From: a candidate division WOR-3 bacterium
GTDB lineage: Bacteria > Hydrothermota > Hydrothermia > LBFQ01
Assembly (NCBI GenBank): GCA_027050205.1
Contig: JALUCS010000056.1
Coordinates: 1-45,525 of the forward strand
DNA length: 45,525 bases
Reading direction: 5' to 3'
Position 1 is the first letter of the stretch, and each line of letters begins with the position of its first letter. Below, in pieces: positions 1-45,525 of the stretch. Both the position numbers and the translations under genes were made by a program. Below the pieces are notes generated by a model. That model did no database searches. It worked only from the letters and a program-made list of their open reading frames with translations, and was not told the origin of the DNA.

Positions 1-59
1 TATCAGGCGTATCCGGCAGATGGGAATTACGTTGATAAAAAGATGCGAGGGGGCATTAA

Positions 60-140
60 CCCATCCTCACCTTCAAAAATTGAAAGTGGGACTTTAAGAA
101 ACCGAAAATCACTCTTTAATAAATAACAAATTGAACTTTA
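60..140 (-). repeat. Degenerate 22-bp-period array (dyad TAAAG-N5-CTTTA + 7-bp T-rich linker), 3-4 units
   Basis: Minus strand reads TAAAG-ttcaa-TTTGT tatttat TAAAG-agtga-TTTTC ggtttct TAAAG-tccca-CTTTC aattttt GAAGG; on + strand CTTTA ends at 96, 118 and 140. Confidence 0.75.
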
Positions 141-371
141 AGCTCCTTGCACCCCCCATTAACGAACTTTGAACGGCGTCAAATGATACGACCTACCTTT
201 ATCGCCAATCTTTGGCATACGATCCGGGAAATTCCGTACCAACGTTCATAGGGAGATGCGTTATCCCATCCGCCAAATACCGAAGTTGGACTTCAAATTT
301 TTGGAAAGTGGGACGTAATCGGCACATTTTTCGCCAACAAGATCCCCACATTACCGACGTAACATCGCGAA

Positions 372-1985: not shown

Positions 1986-3344
1986 TTGTTTCGGATAGCC
2001 CAGGCCCTCCTCCCGGAAATTCGCGACCTCTTGAGGAACCGGGAGTTGAGGCCTTTGAAGTCCCTCCTGTCCGAGCTCCATCCCGCCGAGATTGAGGATA
2101 TAATCTCCGAGCTTTCCCCTTCAGAGGCCGTTTTGCTCCTGAAACTTCTGCCACCGGAGAAGGCGGCGGAGGTGATCTCCAACCTCCACACCCACAACAT
2201 AGACAAGATAATAGCCGGTTTCTCCGATAAGCAACTCCTTGAGATAATGGAGGAGATGGACGACGACGACCGTACCGCTCTCTTTGAGGAGCTTCCCCCG
2301 GACCTCGTCAGGAAGATCCTATCCCTCCTGCCGGAGGAGGAGAGGGAAATTGCCTTGACCCTTTTGAACTACCCGGAGGACTCCTGCGGTCGCCTTATGA
2401 ATACGGAGTTCGTGGCCCTGAACCGTAAGACCACCGTAAAGGAGGCCTTAGAACACCTTAGGAGGAGCGACTACGCCGACGAGGTACTCTTGACCATATA
2501 CGCATTGGACGACGCCCAACGCCTCCGGGGACAGGTCAAACTGACCACCTTGGTGAAATCTCCGGAGGAGGTCCCCATAGGGAAGCTGGCGGAGAAGGTC
2601 CCCTTCGTATCGGCCTACGACCCCGCCTGGAAGGCGGCCAAGATAATGGCAGACTACGACCTCCTCTCCATACCCGTCGTGGATAGTGCCAACCGTATGC
2701 TCGGCGTGATCACTATAGACGACGTGGTGGACGTGATAGTTGAGGAGAGCGCCGAGGACTTCTTGAGGTTCGCTGCCGTGAGCGATCCGGAGGACAACTA
2801 CTTCCTCCTGCCCGTCTTGGAGAGGGTCAAGAAGAGGCTCCCGTGGTTGGCGGGTTTGGCCCTTCTGGCCAACGTCTCCTCCTTTATAATAGGGGCGTAC
2901 GAGGACGTCCTGAAGGAGGCCGTTATACTCGCCGCCTTCATACCTATCCTGAACGGTACGGCGGGGAACACCGGTTCCCAGTGCGCCAGCTTCGTAATAC
3001 GGGCCCTCGCTACGGGGGAGATTACCCTCAACCCCAAGGAGGTCCTGAAGCTTTGGATGACGGAGATGGTGGGGGTACTCTTCGGTCTCGCCCTCCCCCT
3101 ATCGCTCATAGCAGCAGGGAGCGCCTTCCTCCGTACCCACAACCTCGCCATAACCCTGTCCGTCGCCCTTACTATGACGGTGGCCGTCCTCGTGGCCAAC
3201 AGCATCGGCTTCTTCCTTCCCCTTATCGCCAAGAGGCTCGGTATAGACCCGGCCAGCATATCTGCCCCCCTCAACGCTACCCTGAACGATGCCCTCACCC
3301 TAACCCTCTACTTCACCATCTCCCGCCTCATTCTCCACCTGTAG
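1986..3344 (+). CDS. mgtE: Magnesium transporter MgtE
   Basis: MgtE N domain (LHPAEI, MDDDDR), CBS pair (YPEDSCGRLMN, GVITIDDVVD), TM region GNTGSQ and DPASISAP; probable TTG start at 1986, 6 nt after TACAAT. Confidence 0.95.
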   Translation: MFRIAQALLPEIRDLLRNRELRPLKSLLSELHPAEIEDIISELSPSEAVLLLKLLPPEKAAEVISNLHTHNIDKIIAGFSDKQLLEIMEEMDDDDRTALFEELPPDLVRKILSLLPEEEREIALTLLNYPEDSCGRLMNTEFVALNRKTTVKEALEHLRRSDYADEVLLTIYALDDAQRLRGQVKLTTLVKSPEEVPIGKLAEKVPFVSAYDPAWKAAKIMADYDLLSIPVVDSANRMLGVITIDDVVDVIVEESAEDFLRFAAVSDPEDNYFLLPVLERVKKRLPWLAGLALLANVSSFIIGAYEDVLKEAVILAAFIPILNGTAGNTGSQCASFVIRALATGEITLNPKEVLKLWMTEMVGVLFGLALPLSLIAAGSAFLRTHNLAITLSVALTMTVAVLVANSIGFFLPLIAKRLGIDPASISAPLNATLNDALTLTLYFTISRLILHL

Positions 3345-3909
3345 CCATCGCGTAGGTTTCGGGGTCGTAGAGTACGACCCTATCCACCTTAAGGGTATCC
3401 CTTCCGGTTAAGACCTCAACCTTGACGTAATGCTCCCCTTCCTCTACCTCTGGCTCCAGATACACGTACCCCTCTCCCCGTCCCACGGCTACCACCTTCC
3501 CATCTATGGACACCCTGACCTCCAGGTTCCCATCGCCTTGGACGAGGATGTAGCCATCCCATAGGTCCTCAAGACCGCTTACCTCAACCGTGGGCGTCTC
3601 CTCCACTTCCTTGTTCCCTCCCAGTGGCATCCTTACAAAGAATACGGCCAAAAGGAGAAGGGCGGTGATGGATGCGAAGGCTACGGCGAGACGGAGGTAC
3701 GGGAACCTCCTCTTTACGGTGGGTGGTGGAGGCGGTACCACCTCCCGCGCCATCTCCTCCATCAGGGTAGCGAGCCTCCTCTCCCTCTCGTACAGCCTGC
3801 GGCACTCCCCGCAGGTCTCAAGGTGCCTTAGCACCTCCTCCTTCTCCTCCCCCTCCAACCTCCCTATGGCCAGAAGGGGAATGAGTTCCCTTATCTGCCT
3901 GTGGGTCAT
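3328..3909 (-). CDS. Zinc-finger (zf-HC2) transmembrane anti-sigma factor
   Basis: HLETCGEC (HxxxCxxC) motif, single TM helix, periplasmic beta domain; translationally coupled to the ECF sigma gene. Confidence 0.9.
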   Translation of the reverse strand: MTHRQIRELIPLLAIGRLEGEEKEEVLRHLETCGECRRLYERERRLATLMEEMAREVVPPPPPTVKRRFPYLRLAVAFASITALLLLAVFFVRMPLGGNKEVEETPTVEVSGLEDLWDGYILVQGDGNLEVRVSIDGKVVAVGRGEGYVYLEPEVEEGEHYVKVEVLTGRDTLKVDRVVLYDPETYAMATGGE

Positions 3910-4433
3910 TTTCCTTTCTCCTTCAAAAGTGCCTTTAGCTTTCTCTTCGCCCTGTTCAGTCTGGATTTTACCGTCCCTACGCTAACCCCTGTGGCCTCGG
4001 CTATCTCCCTGTAGGTCATCTTCTCCACGTAGAAGAGGTAGAGGACCTCCCTGTAAGGGTCCGGCAGGGAGTAGTATGCCCGGCGAAAGGCGTCAAGGGG
4101 GACGGCGAAGTCCGGCTCCTCCGTCTCCTCCTCATAGTCGTCCTCCTTGGATAACAGGGGGTTGTCCAGGTCGTCCGCCTCCTCGGAGTAGGGGGCGGGT
4201 AGCAGGGGTAGGTGCCTGTTTCTATACCTCCAGTAGTCGTTCATTACGTTTATGGCTATGCGGAAGAGCCAGGTCTTTACCGAGGACAGGCCTTTGAACC
4301 CGGCGAAACCCTTCAGGGCCTTCGTGAAGACCTCCGAGGTCAGGTCAAGGGCGTCGTTGTAATCCCGGACCTTGGAGTATATGAACCGGAAGACGTCCCC
4401 GTAGTGTTTCCTGTAGACCTCCTCAAACGACAC
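3906..4433 (-). CDS. ECF RNA polymerase sigma-70 factor
   Basis: Region 2 DLTSEVF...KTWLFRIAIN; region 4 TYREIAEATGVSVGTVKSRLNRAK. Confidence 0.95.
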   Translation of the reverse strand: MSFEEVYRKHYGDVFRFIYSKVRDYNDALDLTSEVFTKALKGFAGFKGLSSVKTWLFRIAINVMNDYWRYRNRHLPLLPAPYSEEADDLDNPLLSKEDDYEEETEEPDFAVPLDAFRRAYYSLPDPYREVLYLFYVEKMTYREIAEATGVSVGTVKSRLNRAKRKLKALLKEKGK

Positions 4434-10723: not shown

Positions 10724-10933
10724 AATGGGTATTTTAACGGGGATAGAGGAAAGGTTGGCGGAATTTTCCCCTGCTGCGCATCAAAGACCTAACGGCGTCG
10801 GGGATGTCAAAGCGCACATGGTTATACGTTGCTTCGGAGGTAGTGTGATGCACACTTTCAGGAGACCCGTATTGCACCGAAGGCAATCCGTTCCCGAGGT
10901 TTTCAAAATCCGTCATAGGGGGTACGAGAATCT

Positions 10934-11014
10934 TGAAGTGCGACTTACTATTTCTTAAAGTGTAAGTTTAAATTTTATAAAATATATCTTTCAGTTTTTA
11001 AAAGTGCGTTGTTC
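10934..11014 (+). repeat. Degenerate 22-bp-period array, 4 units
   Basis: TGAAG-tgcga-CTTAC tatttct TAAAG-tgtaa-GTTTA aatttta TAAAA-tatat-CTTTC agttttt AAAAG-tgcgt-TGTTC; unit starts 10934/10956/10978/11000. Confidence 0.7.
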
Positions 11015-11399
11015 GGCTTTAAGCGGTGGACGAAGTATCATTTCCGTCGGCGTAATACCGCCGTTTGAAGCACCCATTCAAAAATGGGAATCGGCAATCC
11101 GAGTCTAGATTTTGGCACCGGTGATGCGGTGAATTTTTATGCCGACGGTTCATCGGAGGTTGAATCATTCTATACGATACTAAATATTTGAAGCAGAATC
11201 TGGCTCGGTACCGTTGAAGATCTTGAAATTGTAGGGTTTAAAAGTTGTAAAAGCCTAATTTAAAATTATGCCCATATTTTTATTGATGTATGAAAAATTG
11301 GAAAAATTCAGTAAATCTTTAAGTTGAGCTATTCATTTGGATATTAAGCCGATGGGGAGGGATTGCTCCGCAGCCCTATCAAACGGGACAGAAGAATTT

Positions 11400-11502
11400 T
11401 AAAGGTGAGCTTTCGGTTTACGAAAGTTGAGCTTTACATTTCTTAAATAGGGATTAGCGATTTCCTAAAGGATAAGTTTCAGATTTTGAAAGTGCATCCG
11501 TC
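11400..11502 (+). repeat. Degenerate 22-bp-period array, 5 units
   Basis: TAAAG-gtgag-CTTTC ggtttac GAAAG-ttgag-CTTTA catttct TAAAT-aggga-TTAGC gatttcc TAAAG-gataa-GTTTC agatttt GAAAG; unit starts 11400/11422/11444/11466/11488. Confidence 0.8.
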
Positions 11503-11529
11503 TCCCGTCAAACGGCGAACGGAACCCCA

Positions 11530-11565
11530 GACAACGGACAGGTATCCCCCTACCGGCTCAATACC
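11530..11565 (-). repeat. Dispersed 36-bp intergenic repeat, copy 1
   Basis: Reverse complement GGTATTGAGCCGGTAGGGGGATACCTGTCCGTTGTC matches 20420-20455 at 31/36. Confidence 0.85.
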
Positions 11566-11605
11566 GGGGGAGCTTCACGTTCCCATCAACCCCATAGCTA
11601 CTCGT

Positions 11606-11634
11606 GCCTGTCAATCCCGCTATCCTTTGAATAC
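11606..11634 (+). repeat. Dispersed 29-bp intergenic repeat, copy 1
   Basis: GCCTGTCAATCCCGCTATCCTTTGAATAC matches 28951-28979 at 27/29. Confidence 0.9.
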
Positions 11635-11800
11635 TCCTTTATGTCCCCGCTCCCCGATACCGTTCCGCTACGGGGCCGTTCCTTGTCCCTTCGCTCACCA
11701 AGTGTCAGATTTTTGTAGTAATTCTGATGTGTAAAATTTGTTCTGGTTGTGTGCAAAATGTATCATGTTTATAACTCATCGCCGTTATAATTTTCTTTCT

Positions 11801-13254: not shown

Positions 13255-16200
13255 TTAGAACTTTATCCGTATATCTGCCCTGATCTGGTTCTTGCGGGTG
13301 AAGATGCCTCCTTCGTAGTCGCCGCTTAGGTCGTAGATGTAGCTGAAGGTGGCCTCAACGGCGTTGCTGAACTGGTAGGTGGCGCTTAGGGTCATATTCT
13401 CGCTCTTCCGACGGGATAGGGTGTCTATAGAGTTCGGGAGGCCCTCAAAGAGGTGGTTTATGGAGACGTCCGTACCCGTTGAAACACTGTATTTAAACGA
13501 TAAAGTTAGCTGATTTTTAAGAGAAAGTAGACGACTTTTACTCCAGGGGAACCTTATTCCAGCAAAACTTGTAAAGGTGTGGCTTACGGTCAGGTCCTGG
13601 TTGGTTTGGACGGATCTGGTCTCCAGGTTGGTGGCGGAGTACACCTGGTGGTCTGTCGTGTAGGTGTAGGTGTAGGTGTACCTCAAACTGGTGCCGTTCC
13701 GTAGGGTAGCGTTGGGCGAGAAGCTTAGGGTCCTCGTCCTCCTCTCCGTCTTTGGTTCCACCGTATCCGTCGCCGTAGGTTCCCATAGGGGATAGGTGGT
13801 GGCGCTCCTCTCGTCAGAGTAGCTCACGGTGAAGTCGGAGGAGGCTACGAACTTGAGGTTGGAAACTATCGGGAGGGGCCGCCCGTTGAGGGTGAGGTCG
13901 GGGAACCTCCACGTCTCGGTTAGCATCCTCCTCGTCCTATCGTCGCTTAGGTCCCTCCGGTAGCTGCCGCGGGGGGAGAGGCGGTAGTTCCCCAGATTGA
14001 TGTCCGTTGAGAGGTCGTAGTTGTGGGTCTCCCTCCACATAGACCTCTGGGTGTCCGTTACGATAACCTCTGGGTCTAAGGAGATGCCGAGGCGGTAGGG
14101 TAGGGAGGCCCGGCCGAGGGCGGCGTAGAAGTTGGACGTACGGCTGAAGGAGTAGCCGAACCTAACGCTCCTCCAGACCCGTGAGAGCCTCTCCATCCCG
14201 TACAGGATGGTGTGTAGGGGGCCGGCCTTGGAGAGGGCGGTATCCTTGCTCTTATCCCTCAATCCCCCTATCTTGGAGAGGATGGTCCCGCTCTCCAGGT
14301 TGAGGTTGAAACCTACGCTCAAGTCCTCGTTTAGGTCCCGGACGTCAAACCCGGTTAGGGCGTTCTCCGGTTTCCTACTCTCCGAATAGCCGTGCCTGTA
14401 GTTTATGGAGGGCTGGAGGAACCAGATCGTTCCGAGGTTGAGGGAGGAGGTTAAGTTCTCCCTGAACTGGCTCTCAAAACCGAGGAGGCTATCCAAAGGG
14501 GTCTTGAGGAGTTCCCCGTACCGGTAATCGCCCCGGCGGGAGACGGAGTAGCCGAAGCCCAACATACCGGGGATGGGGTCGTAGTTTATGCTGGCAGATA
14601 GGTTGCCGTTTTTGTCCGTTCGGCGGGTCTTGGCCCCCAACACGTCGGAAAAGGTCGCCGTCCGCCTGTAATCGTAGGAGATGGAGTATGAGGAGGGGAG
14701 GTACCTGTACCTGCGGCCCCCCAACATAAACTCCCCCGTTGGCCTGTAGGAGTACCTGACACCGTAGTTCTCGGATACCGTTGAATCCTTGGACTGTCCC
14801 GGTATGTAGGAGAAGTCGTACCTGCTGCCGTAGTTGAACCGCCAGGGGTCTAAGAACCACTTTCCGATGAGGTTGGTGGAACCGTTTTTGGAGAAGGTGA
14901 AACCGTAGGACGTCGTCTTGCTTACGGAGGTCAGGCGATGCCTCTCCTCCTCCGTAGTGACGGGGACGTCCAGACCGGGGTAGAACTTGGGCAGACGGCT
15001 GGAGAACCCGTAGGAGAAGTTTACGGGGGCGTTCAGACCCCAGGACCTCGGAAAGAGACGGTGGGCGTTAAAGGTGGTATTTACGTTTATGCGGGAGGTC
15101 TGGTATCGGCTTAGGTCGGTGGCGGAGCGGGCGAAGTCTATCTGCTCAAAGTTCCCGCTGACGTTGCTCTGGAAGAGGTCGGAGACGTTGAGGCTCATAG
15201 AGACGTTCCCGGCGTAGGCCGAAGTCTTCACCGGGTCGGTTAGACGCAGCTCGTTGACCCACAGCTCCCCGGATATGCGGCTGGGTGAGTCGTTGGCCAC
15301 CCCTATCCAGAAGAACTCAACCTCAAATATGCTGGGGTTCCCCTTAACCCCGTACCGTCCGTTGCTCCTGTAGTCTGGGGAGTAGTCCTTACCTTTGAAG
15401 AGGACGAGGCTATCTAAGGGTATCTTGACGCTCTGCCACCCTTCCCCCGTTATCCTCTGGCGGAACTCGTAGAAGTTCAGGGAGTCCTTACCGAACCGGA
15501 CGATGAGGGTAGGATGGCTCCCCGTCCTGTCCCAGACCCAGAGGGATACGGAGCGGTAGTTTATGAAGTTGTACTTAGTGTCCATCTTCTTGCGGGCGAG
15601 GACGTAGTCGCCGGGCTTTATCTCGTAGAGGAGCGACATAGACCCCTCGTCCTCAAGGGCCATGGTGTTGCTCTCGTAGTTGAGCTTCTCCTGTACCCCC
15701 GGAGGAGATACGTATCCGGGGGTCGTCTTACGGCTTACGAAGTTGATGGCGAGGTACTGGGTGGTGTCGGCGGTATCCACCTTCGGACCCTCGTTTATCC
15801 AGTTGCTGCCGCCTATTCCGAGGTGCCACAGGAAGAGGGTGTCCGTACGGGTGAAGCCGTACCACGTGAGCCTGTAGTATGCTATACGGTCAAGGGAGGG
15901 GTTGCCGTACACCCTCGTGGGCTTTTTAAGGGGAATGCGGTAGAGCTTCCAACCCTTGTACTCGGCTATGGGGGTGGTGGTGTCCAGGTCTATGACGTAG
16001 GAGTAGAAGTTCTCTTTCATATCCAACTGGAAGTTCCGGTTGAGGTCCTCCGTCTCCATGTGGTGGTTCCCCTCGTACCGGTTGATGGCGAAGGGGTCCG
16101 CCCTTGCGGGGTCGGAGATGGTGTAGTCGTCGTTCCCCCAATCCCCACCGGACGGGTTGCAGGGGCCGTCCTCCCCCCTCTTACCGTCAAGGCCCACGTC

Positions 16201-18810
16201 CTCCCTAGTCTCCGTAAACTGGTTGTCCCCGTCCAGGTCCTCCGTGTTCAGGACCCCCAGGCCGTAGAAGTTGCCATCGCAAGCACGGACGTAGGCGTCC
16301 TCGGGTATGTTGGTACCGATGTCAAATATCAGGATTCCGTGGCCCCTCACGTACACCTCAACGTACTCCCTGTCGGCGTAGTTCATCTCCCTCCTCTCCC
16401 CCAGCATTATGGTCATGAAGTTGGGGATACCGGGAATCCGAGGCTCGGCCACCAATCTCATAAGCTGCTCCGGTTTGTTCTCGTCGTTGGGGTCGGTGAC
16501 GGGGAGGATGTCCTTTCTGACAGCCATAATGGCCGAGTACCACGACTGCCTGTTGGCGAGGATGGAGGTATCGGCATAAGAGGTGGAGTCCAGTATGTAC
16601 GGTAGTGAGCCGTGAATCCACTCCCTGTAGTCGTAGGATACGAGATTGGTTAGGTTAGCATCTATCTGGTCAAACTTGTCTATGTATGCTTCCCCGGCGG
16701 TGTTGGGGTTGGGGAAGGACTTCGCAACCTCCCCGTTCAGCTTGACCTCGCTCCTCTTCTCAAGGCTCAAGGGGGTGCGGGCGTTCAGGAAGCGGTTCAG
16801 GTAGTCCATCGTGTGGTTGAACTTGAGGGAGGCGTCCAGTACCCCGTAGCCCGTTGGGGCGCCGGCGAAGTCGGGCCTCCTCTGGGAGGAGGCGCGGGAC
16901 TTGGACATGTAGTTGAGGCTGAACTGAAGGTTCTCGGATATGTCAAAGGTGGAGGCGAGGCCCAGGATGGCCCTACTCTGCCCCCCGCCGAAGCCGTACT
17001 CCTGCCTGTAATTTACCTTTATCTCGTCCGTCTCGTTTAGGGGTATCAGGAAGTGTATGGTACCCGTAGCGTAATCCACGGTGTAATCCCTACCTTCCTC
17101 CAGTTTCTGCCCGTTCCGGAACACCTCAACCGACCCGTTCAGTACCCCTCCACCCAAGGATATGAACTTCTGGGGCTTCTTGAAGGTTAAGACCATGTAG
17201 TACTTCTCGGAGTAGTAGTTCTGCCAGTACTCCCTGTCTAAAAGGTAGATGACGCTGTCCCTATCGTTGAGGACGGTGTCTGCGAAGGGCCAGAACTTGG
17301 GGAAGATGAGGTAGCCTCCCCCCTCCGGCCTCACGTCCAGGACCCTGAAGTTCACCGTATCCGTTCCATTGACTACCGTCACTATCTCGTTTATGTGGCC
17401 GTCCCCGTCCGGGTCTACGCCGAGGAGAGTGGAGAACTTTATGCCGCCCTGGCCGATGGAGTCGTTGGTGGTGGGATTGTCCCGGTAGATGTTGAAGGTT
17501 ATGCTGGTGGGGGCCACGCTCGTGTCCAGCTCGTAGGGGAGGGTATAGACGTTCTTAAGCTCAAGGAGGTTGATGTTCCGGGCGCAGGTCAGGAGGGTGT
17601 CGGAGGAGGTCATCTTGTTGAGCTTCATCAGGAGCATCCTGACGGGGTTGGTGCTGTCGGGGGATGGGGGGATGTATCCCACCTGTACGGTGTCGGTACC
17701 GTCCTGTTTTACGAGGGTATAGACGGCTCCCAACCACCACTCGGAGGCGTCGGGTGGCTCCAGTATCTGGATAACGTTCCTACTGTAGAACCGGTAGGTG
17801 GAGGGGTCCATCTGGACGAACCTACCGCTGACGAAGCACCGGGTGGTGTCGTCCGTTATCAGTCCGAGGGAGTCCATAAAGTGGAAGGCCTTACCGTAGA
17901 CGTAGGTGTTTCCCGTGAGGGTGAGGGGTCGGTAGAAGAGGACGAGGTTGGTTATGCGGTACTCGTTGGGGTCGCCGGATACGAAGGGGGCAACGGGGAG
18001 GTAGAAGAAGGTCTCCTTCAGGTAATCGCTCCCCCATATCGTATCGGTGATTATCTGGGATTTGGCCTGGAAGACTTTGGTCTGGCTCTGGCCTTTCTCC
18101 TTGGTGGCAACGGCCACTATCTTGGCCGGACCAAAGGCGAACCTACCCTTCAGACCGAATAGGCCCGCTCCCGCACCGATGGAGGAGTAGCTAGTACTGG
18201 GGAAGTCGGAGACGTCTATGTCCCCCGCCTGAAGGCTCTGCACTATGTCGTCGTCCGTACCGGTGTAGGAGAGGAGTATCTTCTGGCGGTTCATCTCCGT
18301 CGCCTCGGAGTTGTGTCTGACCTCAACCTTCAAACGGTCGGTTATCTGGCCGGTTATTATGACGTTTAGGGTTTGCTTCATGTTCAGGCCGGGGACGTTG
18401 CTCATCTGGTAGGTGTTGTTGAGGTTCTGCCCGCCGGGACTTAGGAGGTCTTCCTTGTATCCACCGATTGAGATGGTTTGACTTCCCCGCAGGGATACCT
18501 TGCTGACGCCCTCCCCGAGGAACCTCCACCGCTTGGGGATCTGGACGGGTACCTCTATGTCGGGGACGAGACCGGATATGGCGCTGGAGGAGGCGGTATC
18601 GTAGGGCTTTACGGTCGTCTTACGGAGGTACCTGACGAGGTTTATGCCGAAGAACTCGTCCAAGGAGTAGACCTTTACGGTGTCCTGCGTCCCGAAGTAG
18701 TCGTATACGCCATACACACCGGTGGAGTCGTAGGTGTAGGTGTAGGAGAAGGTCTCCTCCAAAAACCTCCGTGTGAAGTAATCTTCGTATGAGAGAAGGA
18801 GCCAGATCAC
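13255..18810 (-). CDS. sprA: T9SS outer-membrane translocon SprA/Sov homologue
   Basis: 1851 aa; SprA-type motifs GQITDRLKV, YTGTDDDIVQSLQAGDI, GLFGLKG, ELKNVY, DYTVDYATG, TEDLD/TEDLN, WKLYRIPL, GELWVNELRL; beta-barrel C-terminus ending in F. Confidence 0.9.
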   Translation of the reverse strand: MIWLLLSYEDYFTRRFLEETFSYTYTYDSTGVYGVYDYFGTQDTVKVYSLDEFFGINLVRYLRKTTVKPYDTASSSAISGLVPDIEVPVQIPKRWRFLGEGVSKVSLRGSQTISIGGYKEDLLSPGGQNLNNTYQMSNVPGLNMKQTLNVIITGQITDRLKVEVRHNSEATEMNRQKILLSYTGTDDDIVQSLQAGDIDVSDFPSTSYSSIGAGAGLFGLKGRFAFGPAKIVAVATKEKGQSQTKVFQAKSQIITDTIWGSDYLKETFFYLPVAPFVSGDPNEYRITNLVLFYRPLTLTGNTYVYGKAFHFMDSLGLITDDTTRCFVSGRFVQMDPSTYRFYSRNVIQILEPPDASEWWLGAVYTLVKQDGTDTVQVGYIPPSPDSTNPVRMLLMKLNKMTSSDTLLTCARNINLLELKNVYTLPYELDTSVAPTSITFNIYRDNPTTNDSIGQGGIKFSTLLGVDPDGDGHINEIVTVVNGTDTVNFRVLDVRPEGGGYLIFPKFWPFADTVLNDRDSVIYLLDREYWQNYYSEKYYMVLTFKKPQKFISLGGGVLNGSVEVFRNGQKLEEGRDYTVDYATGTIHFLIPLNETDEIKVNYRQEYGFGGGQSRAILGLASTFDISENLQFSLNYMSKSRASSQRRPDFAGAPTGYGVLDASLKFNHTMDYLNRFLNARTPLSLEKRSEVKLNGEVAKSFPNPNTAGEAYIDKFDQIDANLTNLVSYDYREWIHGSLPYILDSTSYADTSILANRQSWYSAIMAVRKDILPVTDPNDENKPEQLMRLVAEPRIPGIPNFMTIMLGERREMNYADREYVEVYVRGHGILIFDIGTNIPEDAYVRACDGNFYGLGVLNTEDLDGDNQFTETREDVGLDGKRGEDGPCNPSGGDWGNDDYTISDPARADPFAINRYEGNHHMETEDLNRNFQLDMKENFYSYVIDLDTTTPIAEYKGWKLYRIPLKKPTRVYGNPSLDRIAYYRLTWYGFTRTDTLFLWHLGIGGSNWINEGPKVDTADTTQYLAINFVSRKTTPGYVSPPGVQEKLNYESNTMALEDEGSMSLLYEIKPGDYVLARKKMDTKYNFINYRSVSLWVWDRTGSHPTLIVRFGKDSLNFYEFRQRITGEGWQSVKIPLDSLVLFKGKDYSPDYRSNGRYGVKGNPSIFEVEFFWIGVANDSPSRISGELWVNELRLTDPVKTSAYAGNVSMSLNVSDLFQSNVSGNFEQIDFARSATDLSRYQTSRINVNTTFNAHRLFPRSWGLNAPVNFSYGFSSRLPKFYPGLDVPVTTEEERHRLTSVSKTTSYGFTFSKNGSTNLIGKWFLDPWRFNYGSRYDFSYIPGQSKDSTVSENYGVRYSYRPTGEFMLGGRRYRYLPSSYSISYDYRRTATFSDVLGAKTRRTDKNGNLSASINYDPIPGMLGFGYSVSRRGDYRYGELLKTPLDSLLGFESQFRENLTSSLNLGTIWFLQPSINYRHGYSESRKPENALTGFDVRDLNEDLSVGFNLNLESGTILSKIGGLRDKSKDTALSKAGPLHTILYGMERLSRVWRSVRFGYSFSRTSNFYAALGRASLPYRLGISLDPEVIVTDTQRSMWRETHNYDLSTDINLGNYRLSPRGSYRRDLSDDRTRRMLTETWRFPDLTLNGRPLPIVSNLKFVASSDFTVSYSDERSATTYPLWEPTATDTVEPKTERRTRTLSFSPNATLRNGTSLRYTYTYTYTTDHQVYSATNLETRSVQTNQDLTVSHTFTSFAGIRFPWSKSRLLSLKNQLTLSFKYSVSTGTDVSINHLFEGLPNSIDTLSRRKSENMTLSATYQFSNAVEATFSYIYDLSGDYEGGIFTRKNQIRADIRIKF

Positions 18811-20239: not shown

Positions 20240-20419
20240 CTGCGTATTCTAAGGAGGCCCGCTGGGGCGTACGGGGGGACGATCAGAGCGAAGGGATTAC
20301 GAAGGCGGGTTTTCGGTATTCGGTGGATGGCCCACCTCTGAGGGAGTGGTCGGCGTTCTATAATTTGGGATTATGCTGATAGGGGGATAGCCTACCTTCC
20401 ACGTCCTCCCCATTAACGG

Positions 20420-20455
20420 GGTATTGAGCCGATAGAGGGGTACCTATCCGTCGTC
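20420..20455 (+). repeat. Dispersed 36-bp intergenic repeat, copy 2
   Basis: GGTATTGAGCCGATAGAGGGGTACCTATCCGTCGTC; 31/36 to the reverse complement of 11530-11565, all mismatches transitions. Confidence 0.85.
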
Positions 20456-20856
20456 CGAGTACGCATAGGGTATAGCTTCCCGACGGCATTTTTCCATTTT
20501 TTGGGCGCAGGTGAAAGTGGGATAATATGAGAAAATGTTTGTAAATATGGTAGTTAGCATCAAATTGTTAAAAATCTGCATGTACTTCCATAAAATCTTA
20601 AAATTATCCCAGTTTTATGGGGCTGTGGGGTGATAGTCATTCCATCAGCAGAATCCCGGTTTCAGAAGGTGCGAGATACAGTTCAACGGATCCTTGAAGG
20701 CCATATCGTACCATCCATAAACCTATCCACCAAATACCGCAATCTTTTTGGGGAAGTTCCCAACCCCTCATCCGCCGAATATCGCATCATCTACCGAATA
20801 TCGTTGTTTAAGAAGAAAAAGAACTGTTTGTGCCATTGTGATTTTCCCACGCTTAA

Positions 20857-28632: not shown

Positions 28633-28831
28633 GGAGGGATTATAGGGGAGGAGTTTTGGAGAAGTCGGATGTGGCGTAAATCCACGTTCGGTCTTAGAAA
28701 CGGACAGGAAGGTCAGGGAGATGGTGTTACGCTTATGGGATGATGCCCCATATCCAACGCTTTCAAATGAAAACGATGGACGGTATCCAATCCTCAACAC
28801 CGCTCGGGGGATCCGTGGGGTGTCAAAATCT

Positions 28832-28912
28832 TAAAGTCAGACTTTTAATTCTTTAAACATACATTTTAGGTTTCTTAAAATACCGTTTTAAAATCTTGAA
28901 AATGATCTACGT
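28832..28912 (+). repeat. Degenerate 22-bp-period array, 3-4 units
   Basis: TAAAG-tcaga-CTTTT aattctt TAAAC-ataca-TTTTA ggtttct TAAAA-taccg-TTTTA aaatctt GAAAA; unit starts 28832/28854/28876/28898. Confidence 0.75.
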
Positions 28913-28950
28913 TCAAAGGCCAGAATTATTGTGGGACTCGTAGATACCAA

Positions 28951-28979
28951 GCCTGTCAATCCCTCTATCCTTTGAGTAC
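28951..28979 (+). repeat. Dispersed 29-bp intergenic repeat, copy 2
   Basis: GCCTGTCAATCCCTCTATCCTTTGAGTAC; 27/29 to 11606-11634. Confidence 0.9.
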
Positions 28980-29113
28980 CGGTTCTCCAAGTCGCCCTTA
29001 AAAGTGCCTTACCCCCAACCTTTATCGCGGCCTTCGTTAAGGGTACAACCTCAAAACCTACCGATGGGGAGCAGGGACAGATTTGGGCAACGCCCCCTGA
29101 CTCCCGGTCGGCC

Positions 29114-37652: not shown

Positions 37653-37726
37653 GGCGGCGTAGCTCAGCCGGTCAGAGCGAGGGTTTCATAAACCCTAGGT
37701 CCGGGGTTCAAGTCCCCGCGCCGCCA
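37653..37726 (+). tRNA. tRNA with CAT anticodon (most likely elongator Met; Ile2 not excluded), CCA not encoded
   Basis: Acceptor GGCGGCG/CGCCGCC-A; D arm GCTC/GAGC; anticodon arm AGGGT-TTCATAA-ACCCT; T arm CGGGG-TTCAAGT-CCCCG; the paired 1-72 position rules out initiator tRNA. Confidence 0.93.
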
Positions 37727-45189: not shown

Positions 45190-45525
45190 GCGGCATCACA
45201 ACCGTATCTGTTGCACTTTTCAACGTTTTGATGTAAAGGTGGAACACCTGCCTACAGGGACATACCCTCTAAAACGCCCGTTAGGTATCCTGTGGTGGGA
45301 GATGGGCTGGGCTTTGTTCTATCATCGCCTTGAGGCCTGACTTAGCCCTAGGAGGATTGGGGATCATAAAAAGTTGGTTTCCGTGAAATTTTCCCTAAAA
45401 AATGCTGTGTCCAATAATACTTTAGTAGGCGTATCATCCTTTTGACATTTTTCTGAATGGGTAATGGAATTATGCGGCCAACATCAAGGCAGAAATGTAC
45501 AACTTAAACATTATCTCCCGTTTTA

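What the first reader, a model, noticed from the sequence alone, without database searches (positions are those of the whole stretch)
11340..11565. Candidate composite element: imperfect inverted ends enclosing a five-unit 22-bp array
Seen: 11340-11375 and the reverse complement of 11530-11565 match at 15 of the first 20 positions (22/36 overall, mostly transitions) and enclose the 11400-11502 array. The gap at 8-281 has the same layout: 16-mer, array at 60-140, inverted 16-mer. The two spans are similar (226 and 274 bp). The gap at 20315-20802 has three inward copies on each side. Short words also recur across the gaps: TCAAACGGCG at 11508 and in reverse at 11059-11068, and CCCCATTAACG at 154-164 and 20408-20418. 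Inference: a modular, roughly 230-500 bp non-coding element family. It could be an ancient MITE family or a domesticated chromosome-architecture locus. This is my best candidate for an undescribed system in the window.
Basis: partly seen in the sequence, partly recalled or inferred. Interest (0 to 1): 0.8.

Follow-up and report, generated by a model that had tools for sequence, protein, structure and literature searches.

The report
Mini-transposon carrying a host operator array
This 226-base element is one of many copies of a miniature, non-coding IS1-type transposon, and its core of 22-base repeats matches the repeat array over the promoter of a conserved predicted envelope-stress operon, so mobile DNA has likely copied a host regulator's predicted binding site to about 90 places in one genome.

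Summary
Observation confirmed. 11340-11565 is an IS1-family MITE: 14 near-full copies in the genome (70-92% alike), ends matching two IS1 elements there, exact 8-9 bp target duplications at 3 of 14 copies (none here), and no copy in 40 relatives. The scan had already called these arrays IS1-MITE modules on other DNA of this genome. New here: the 22-bp dyad array (about 90 loci, none in genes) matches a single-copy array over the sigma-70 promoter of the SHOCT-toastrack/DUF2089 operon, conserved across this WOR-3 class. A model from the dispersed arrays ranks that promoter first in 5 relatives; a matrix from relatives' promoters puts the dispersed arrays in 50 of its top 50 hits. Likely reading: an IS1 derivative captured the operator of the uncharacterised DUF2089 regulator and amplified it. 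Binding is untested, and convergence on phased A/T DNA is not excluded. Domestication is not supported: there is no bias toward gene starts, and the test for selection after insertion was not significant.

The parts
11340..11565 (+). IS1-family MITE, family A (226 bp); old copy without target-site duplication
   Evidence: left junction shared with related vent populations
11340..11362 (+). left terminal inverted repeat, IS1 type, decayed (GA instead of GG)
   Evidence: 16/23 identical to the left end of the C40 IS1; score 22.4
11543..11565 (-). right terminal inverted repeat, IS1 type
   Evidence: 17/23 identical to the left end of the C40 IS1; score 27.6
11393..11494 (+). 22-bp-period array of TTYMA-N5-TKRAA-like dyads (dyads at 11411, 11433, 11455, 11477); predicted DUF2089-type operator copy
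11566..11635 (+). right 70 bp of a family-B IS1-type MITE, abutting family A (A likely inserted into B, then the left flank was exchanged)
10900..11059 (+). second, more decayed array element in the same gap (array 10927-11015, one end at 11059)
23..281 (-). IS1-type MITE of another subfamily, with array at 59-147
20367..20802 (.). nest of IS1-type ends (2 facing right, 3-4 facing left), no array called
28723..28980 (+). family-B IS1-type MITE with array at 28825-28912

Best explanation
The element is a non-coding miniature transposon with IS1-type ends and a core of 22-bp dyads that matches the conserved array over the toastrack/DUF2089 operon promoter; it likely was moved in trans by an IS1 transposase and likely carries a captured copy of the operator predicted to bind the host DUF2089 regulator. 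SHOWN: IS1-type ends; 8-9 bp target duplications in the family; an intact-looking IS1 in the same genome; the two-way match between the dispersed arrays and the operon promoter array; one such array in the congeners best examined against about 90 here. INFERRED: (1) InsAB' mobilised it; (2) an ancestral pair of IS1 ends picked up the promoter/operator array, and the subfamilies descend from that event; (3) DUF2089 (zinc ribbon-HTH-SHOCT) binds the dyads as an oligomer, one dyad every two helical turns; (4) the dyads were kept in the propagating lineages, most likely because a protein-bound or A/T-phased, bendable 100-bp core helps two ends only about 230 bp apart to pair; (5) as a side effect, the extra arrays would titrate the regulator. 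This copy is now likely immobile. Confidence is about 0.93 for the IS1-MITE part and about 0.65 for the whole statement through step 3; step 4 is the weakest (about 0.35).
For: MITE: 14 near-full copies, exact duplications at 3 of 14, 7/8 and 6/8 at two more. 10 exact 8-9 bp flank pairs among 200 IS1-type ends, all local, against a shuffle mean of 0.4 and maximum of 2. IS1 at C31:1269-2174 with InsA/InsB', an A8C slippery run and an exact 8-bp duplication. The end motif occurs in the same 5 of 11 family genomes that hold the IS1 transposase. A filled/empty pair with an 8-bp duplication exists for a sister MITE in G002/G004. Operator link: an array upstream of the toastrack gene in 18 of 20 relatives where it leads its operon. 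The best site lies at -68 to -89 in 7 of 7 class members where DUF2089 leads. Model R1, built without the native locus, ranks that promoter first in G001, G005, G006, G012 and G016 and second in G004, and the unit matrix ranks it first in 1.39 Mb of G006. In the reverse test, 50 of the top 50 hits at 22-bp spacing are called arrays, against 0-4 at 19, 20, 24 and 25 bp and 9-28 for column-shuffled matrices. G007 has no DUF2089 by two searches and no array over the promoter. Dyad A/T sites change less: 0.29 against 1.69 changes per site, and 0.069 against 0.16-0.18 in matched A/T context.
Against: No binding data. The motif is mostly phased T- and A-runs, so convergence on bendable DNA could give much of the match. 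R1 did not rank the promoter first in G027 or G002 and was noisy in AT-rich genomes, and only 81-150 candidates per genome were scored. Where DUF2089 lies apart from the toastrack gene (G000, G004, G005, G006, G012, G016, G027 and others), no array precedes it. G003 has two DUF2089 genes but only a weak array. 35 of 92 arrays have no inward IS1-type end within 350 bp, and only 29 of 92 have both. This copy has no target duplication (0/8). The native G000 array preferred the opposite orientation in one matrix test (39 against 20 bits), though R1 scored it best in the congeners' orientation. Private substitutions do not show constraint after insertion (p=0.096; no difference within context). No empty site was found for family A.
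Confidence: 0.65

Rival explanations
1. Ordinary IS1 MITE whose core is convergent phased A/T (bent, or HU/IHF-type) DNA; the likeness to the operon promoter reflects shared DNA geometry, not descent or a shared binder.
For: The motif is T-run/A-run periodic, and column-shuffled matrices still recover 9-28 of the top 50. Two HU/IHF-family genes are present. A relaxed IHF-like word (consensus recalled, not from a call) occurs in 29 of 92 arrays. Sequence context explains part of the conservation. MITEs with IHF sites are known (PMC3184786, passages).
Against: The exact recalled IHF consensus occurs in only 3 of 92 arrays. The match is sharply tuned to 21-23 bp spacing and peaks at 22. In G006 the only comparable site in 1.39 Mb is the toastrack promoter, which is not expected of a global nucleoid factor. 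R1 hits lie antisense to the operon in 6 of 6 listed relatives.
Confidence: 0.2
2. The dispersed arrays have been domesticated: they form an enlarged DUF2089 regulon, or a membrane-tethering or chromosome-organising lattice through the SHOCT tails.
For: Dyads are conserved even in copies with decayed ends. About 40-55 dispersed loci score as well as the native site (native rank 44, this copy rank 56). Genes flanking this gap have lost the upstream neighbours they have in congeners.
Against: No orientation bias (44 against 37 of 70), and only 14 of 70 lie within 120 bp of a gene start. The singleton test is not significant. The dispersed arrays are absent from the 1.39 Mb of G006 examined and nearly so from G001 and G005.
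Confidence: 0.1
3. A structured non-coding RNA family.
For: The window copy folds with z=-3.4.
Against: The folding follows from the terminal repeats and the dyads. Only 7 of 61 consensus pairs in 10 copies show any double-sided change. There is no Rfam match at these coordinates. Target duplications and IS1 ends explain the boundaries.
Confidence: 0.04

Closest known systems
IS1-family insertion sequences (E. coli IS1; PMC12428005, passages read) and their non-autonomous derivatives
   Same: Imperfect terminal repeats, 8-9 bp target duplication, and a partner element with InsA (zinc finger + HTH), an A6C-type frameshift and a DDE InsB' in the same genome.
   Different: No transposase remnant, and the core is unrelated to the two IS1 elements of the genome, which carry no array between their ends.
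BrickBuilt MITE of Porphyromonas gingivalis (PMC4596501, abstract and passages read)
   Same: A species-restricted, intergenic MITE with a trapped internal tandem repeat (23 nt there, 22 bp here); many copies have lost an end.
   Different: BrickBuilt has IS5-type ends and a minisatellite of 1-23 near-identical units. Here there are a fixed 4-5 position-specific dyad units shared by several subfamilies, with an identifiable counterpart over a conserved host promoter.
Correia elements, REP2 and BIMEs carrying IHF sites or promoters (PMC3184786, passages read)
   Same: Small mobile or repeated DNA that spreads protein-binding or promoter motifs.
   Different: Those carry sites for global factors or RNA polymerase; here the cargo matches the predicted operator of one specific local regulator.
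DUF2089 / SHOCT-like / Toastrack gene contexts (Ravi et al., bioRxiv 10.1101/2020.09.24.301986, passages read)
   Same: The operon under the native array is of this kind (PF22746, weak PF13349, PF09862); the paper predicts a membrane-stress role and a ZnR-HTH-SHOCT architecture.
   Different: The passages read name no operator. Its supplements could not be seen and may bear on this.

Membership tests
MITE (non-autonomous IS derivative) | terminal inverted repeats flanking a short non-coding core | tested here: met
   0 of 92 arrays in coding sequence
MITE (non-autonomous IS derivative) | multiple dispersed copies with sharp shared boundaries | tested here: met
   14 near-full copies, 204-236 bp
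MITE (non-autonomous IS derivative) | target-site duplication | tested here: met
   exact in 3 of 14 copies, near in 2, absent in this copy; 10 local pairs against 0.4 expected
MITE (non-autonomous IS derivative) | empty orthologous site in a relative | tested here: inconclusive
   flanks not syntenic for the 3 family-A loci tried; a filled/empty pair was seen only for a sister MITE
IS1-family derivative | ends shared with an IS1-family element of the same genome | tested here: met
   window ends 16/23 and 17/23 to the C40 IS1, other copies up to 20/23; motif co-occurs with IS1 transposase in 5 of 11 family genomes
IS1-family derivative | partner has InsA ZnR-HTH, A6C frameshift and DDE InsB' | tested here: met
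   NF033558 E 2e-18 and 2e-13 for the two halves (each under the whole-protein cut-off); PF03400 over cut-off; PF03811 just under; A8C run
IS1-family derivative | 8-9 bp duplication length | tested here: met
   IS1 value from PMC12428005
IS1-family derivative | mobilised by InsAB' in trans | not testable with these tools
   needs a transposition assay
DUF2089-type operator (predicted, uncharacterised) | same dyad and period as the array over the operon promoter | tested here: met
DUF2089-type operator (predicted, uncharacterised) | array follows presence of the DUF2089 gene | tested here: inconclusive
   G007 lacks both; G003 has the gene and only a weak array; stand-alone DUF2089 genes have no array of their own
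DUF2089-type operator (predicted, uncharacterised) | bound by DUF2089 | not testable with these tools
   no protein-DNA test available; the fold job did not finish
IHF-site-bearing repeat (Correia/BIME type) | IHF consensus (recalled) in the core | tested here: not met
   exact in 3 of 92 arrays, relaxed in 29 of 92
structured ncRNA | compensatory covariation or Rfam match | tested here: not met

The most novel reading that the evidence does not exclude
A bacterial MITE radiation captured the operator of one specific host transcription factor (DUF2089, with a SHOCT tail predicted to be membrane-linked) and multiplied it about 90-fold. The bound host protein serves the element as a synapsis scaffold, and the copies titrate or rewire a predicted envelope-stress circuit. 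This would be transposon-driven spread of regulator sites, familiar in eukaryotes, in a prokaryote, and it would also reveal the DUF2089 binding site.
Probability: 0.35. Interest if true: 0.78.

Novelty: new variant of a known kind. Interest (0 to 1): 0.52.

Why it matters
As a MITE it is ordinary. Its cargo is not. The same 22-bp dyad array lies over the promoter of an uncharacterised, widespread operon (DUF2089 in 162 of 226 genomes of this phylum). That gives a ready probe for the unknown DUF2089 binding site, plus about 90 natural variants of it in one genome. If binding is confirmed, this is a direct bacterial case of a transposon amplifying a specific regulator's operator, and titration, cargo selection and host-factor-assisted transposition become testable with two small proteins and a 226-bp fragment.

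Tried and rejected
IS1595 and IS6 partners: no PF12762 or PF13610 match in the genome. Other homes for the array: the exact pattern gave 1 hit in the GTDB collection, a near-perfect 22-bp tandem repeat behind what looks like an HU-like gene in a Culturomica MAG, judged unrelated. The family-specific pattern gave 0 hits in JGI metagenomes. Empty sites: the flanks of 3 family-A loci are not syntenic in 5 congeners. A link to rearrangement breakpoints is not specific: 1 of 32 MITE-bearing gaps is syntenic in G006, but so are only 2 of 22 other gaps of 300 bp or more. Promoter donation: no orientation or distance bias. Selection after insertion: not significant. RNA: no RNA holder listed, and covariation is weak. 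No solved structure matched DUF2089 below E 0.04. The structure prediction did not finish. Two review papers looked up by recalled id were not held. PMC10434189 mentions DUF2089 only in a table row. The family-B alignment included partial copies, so only the family-A figures are used.

Full report
Setting. The window is contig C56 of a 2.05-Mb, 57% GC assembly. Homologue names place it in candidate division WOR-3, and the main DNA holder is a hydrothermal-vent metagenome. The element lies in a 1-kb non-coding gap between an 875-aa gene without Pfam match and an FG-GAP protein.

Observation. BLAST of the gap against the genome gives a family with sharp boundaries at 11340 and 11565: 14 near-full copies of 204-236 bp, 70-92% alike. 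None of 40 relatives has a match.

It is an IS1-type MITE. A matrix from the ends finds 140 sites against 2 in a shuffle; after refinement there are 247 over 14 bits against 1-5 per shuffled strand. One inward pair, C40:1774-2693, encloses InsA- and InsB'-like frames, broken near the C-terminus. A second element, C31:1269-2174, looks intact: 906 bp, a 121-aa ZnR-HTH frame, an A8C slippery run, a 177-aa DDE frame and an exact 8-bp duplication. Both halves hit the IS1 model NF033558, each under the whole-protein cut-off, and PF03400 is over its cut-off. These are the IS1 features described in PMC12428005 (passages). The window's ends match the C40 IS1 at 16/23 and 17/23, other copies at up to 20/23. 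Exact 8-9 bp duplications flank 3 of 14 copies, two more match 7/8 and 6/8, and the window copy has none. Among 200 ends, 10 exact flank pairs exist, all local, against 0.4 expected; these 10 include the IS1 itself, one back-to-back junction and one same-strand pair. In relatives the end motif occurs in 7 of 40 genomes. Within the family it occurs in the same 5 of 11 that have the IS1 transposase, and two more distant genomes have 1-2 hits without one. The window copy abuts the right 70 bp of a family-B MITE. Its left junction is shared with related vent populations in 2 of 4 runs laid, so it is likely an old, immobile insertion whose flank was exchanged later.

The array. A 22-bp unit holding a TTYMA-N5-TKRAA-like dyad forms 92 arrays of 3-5 units, against 0 in shuffles, and none lies in coding sequence. 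29 have inward IS1-type ends on both sides, 28 on one side and 35 on neither. Gaps with an array hold an end in 44 of 64 cases, gaps without in 41 of 184. Units are position-specific across subfamilies, which points to one ancestral array. The IS1 elements themselves do not contain it.

Where the array comes from. The pattern hit only 1 of 40 relatives, G005, directly upstream of a SHOCT-like/toastrack gene. G000 has an array at the orthologous place, C104:12035-12123, with no IS1 end called beside it. Of 28 relatives' toastrack-operon loci examined, 7 were internal genes and 1 had no upstream DNA. Of the other 20, 18 have an array over the -35/-10 region (scores 13.6-37.8; four are from AT-rich genomes, where scores inflate), and G003 and G007 do not. 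In the 7 class members where DUF2089 leads the operon, the best site of the 3-kb locus lies at -68 to -89 in all 7, though two score low (4.3 and 10.9). Of 30 loci from other families only 2 match this matrix well, and many others show a different dyad. Promoter sets show self-similarity peaks at 21-22 bp (23 promoters of this class) and at 21 bp (49 of 80 metagenome loci with a detectable promoter). Two blind tests link the dispersed and native arrays. First, model R1, built from 24 dispersed arrays without the native locus, ranks the operon promoter first in G001, G005, G006, G012 and G016 and second in G004. It does not do so in G027 or G002 and is noisy in AT-rich genomes. The unit matrix also ranks the promoter first in 1.39 of 1.8 Mb of G006, where no array passes the G000 threshold. 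Second, a matrix from 26 relatives' promoters, placed only by the -10 box (two were mis-anchored and kept), puts called arrays in 50 of the top 50 and 82 of the top 100 G000 hits at 22-bp spacing. The figures are 38-39 of 50 at 21 and 23 bp, 0-4 at 19, 20, 24 and 25 bp, and 9-28 for shuffled columns; the native site ranks 44th and this element 56th. DUF2089 is ZnR-HTH-SHOCT (Ravi et al., passages), is present in 162 of 226 phylum genomes and is intact in G000. In G001, G008 and G009 it is divergent from the toastrack gene across the array. G007 lacks it by two searches and lacks the array. Against this reading: stand-alone DUF2089 genes have no array of their own, G003 has the gene and only a weak array, and nothing here shows binding. 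An earlier scan note on Clostridia (e1-974542) also reports evenly spaced palindromes at DUF2089 promoters; it is an unchecked lead, seen after my tests.

Is the array constrained? In 13 family-A copies, dyad and core A/T sites show 0.29 changes per site against 1.69 at other non-terminal A/T sites (permutation p<1e-4). In matched A/T context over 90 non-independent pairs the gap shrinks to 0.069 against 0.16, with 0.18 in array-free repeats. Private substitutions do not differ significantly (5/652 against 13/684, p=0.096). So any constraint is on propagating lineages, or is partly mutational; host-level selection after insertion is not shown. Arrays show no orientation or distance bias toward gene starts. 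RNA structure is not supported.

Mechanism. Shown: IS1-type ends and duplications, a candidate helper IS1, and a two-way match of the core to the operon promoter array. Inferred: mobilisation in trans by InsAB'; one capture of the promoter/operator array by IS1 ends, since the native array is class-wide and single-copy in the best-examined congeners while the dispersed copies are seen mainly in IS1-bearing genomes (a few in G002 and G004); DUF2089 as the binder; retention because a bound or phased core helps the closely spaced ends to pair; and titration of the regulator as a side effect.

Known and new. MITEs with internal repeats or binding motifs are known (BrickBuilt, PMC4596501, abstract and passages; Correia and BIME, PMC3184786, passages). 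Seven searches of the held library (listings only, except the papers named) showed no DUF2089 operator and no bacterial MITE carrying a specific regulator's operator. Most subscription papers and the Ravi et al. supplements were not visible. Verdict: a real feature, a known kind of element with an unusual and testable cargo; interest 0.52.

Noticed in passing
window 45403-45525: The last 123-126 bases are 100% identical to the ends of 5 other contigs: a recent collapsed repeat, possibly an active IS end, not classified.
   Followed up: no
L132 (G002:C97:208-588) against L126 (G004:C56:31659-31883): The same array-bearing IS1-type MITE in two congeners, one with a nested 148-bp IS1-type MITE inserted into the array with an 8-bp duplication. 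L131 shows a 149-bp MITE with an 8-bp duplication abutting an array, so arrays may be preferred targets.
   Followed up: partly
G000:C60:36869-37665 and C87:25896-26758: Composite elements of 797 and 863 bp bounded by IS1-type ends with exact 8-bp duplications, so multi-module units moved as one.
   Followed up: no
G000:C63:23519/23529: Two IS1-type ends back to back, separated by a 9-bp spacer, like a tandem junction.
   Followed up: no
L175-L248 (metagenome DUF2089 loci): Other DUF2089 clades have a different dyad (TTAA-N5-TTAA-like) at about 21-bp spacing upstream of the -35 box. L176, whose HTH resembles this genome's, has the G000-type dyad.
   Followed up: partly
L054-L064 (toastrack gene promoters): The -10 box lies about 9 nt before the ATG with no Shine-Dalgarno sequence in this order: predicted leaderless mRNAs.
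   Followed up: no
window 10724-11791: Both flanking genes sit directly behind, or close to, other genes in the congeners examined, so this 1-kb gap is a rearrangement junction filled with MITE debris.
   Followed up: partly
L050:255-360: A near-perfect 22-bp tandem repeat behind an HU-like gene in a Culturomica MAG resembles the unit consensus; probably chance.
   Followed up: partly
window 3328-4433, 13255-18810, 37653-37726: An ECF-type sigma/anti-sigma pair next to an S8 peptidase, an SprA-domain protein of 1851 aa, and a tRNA.
   Followed up: no
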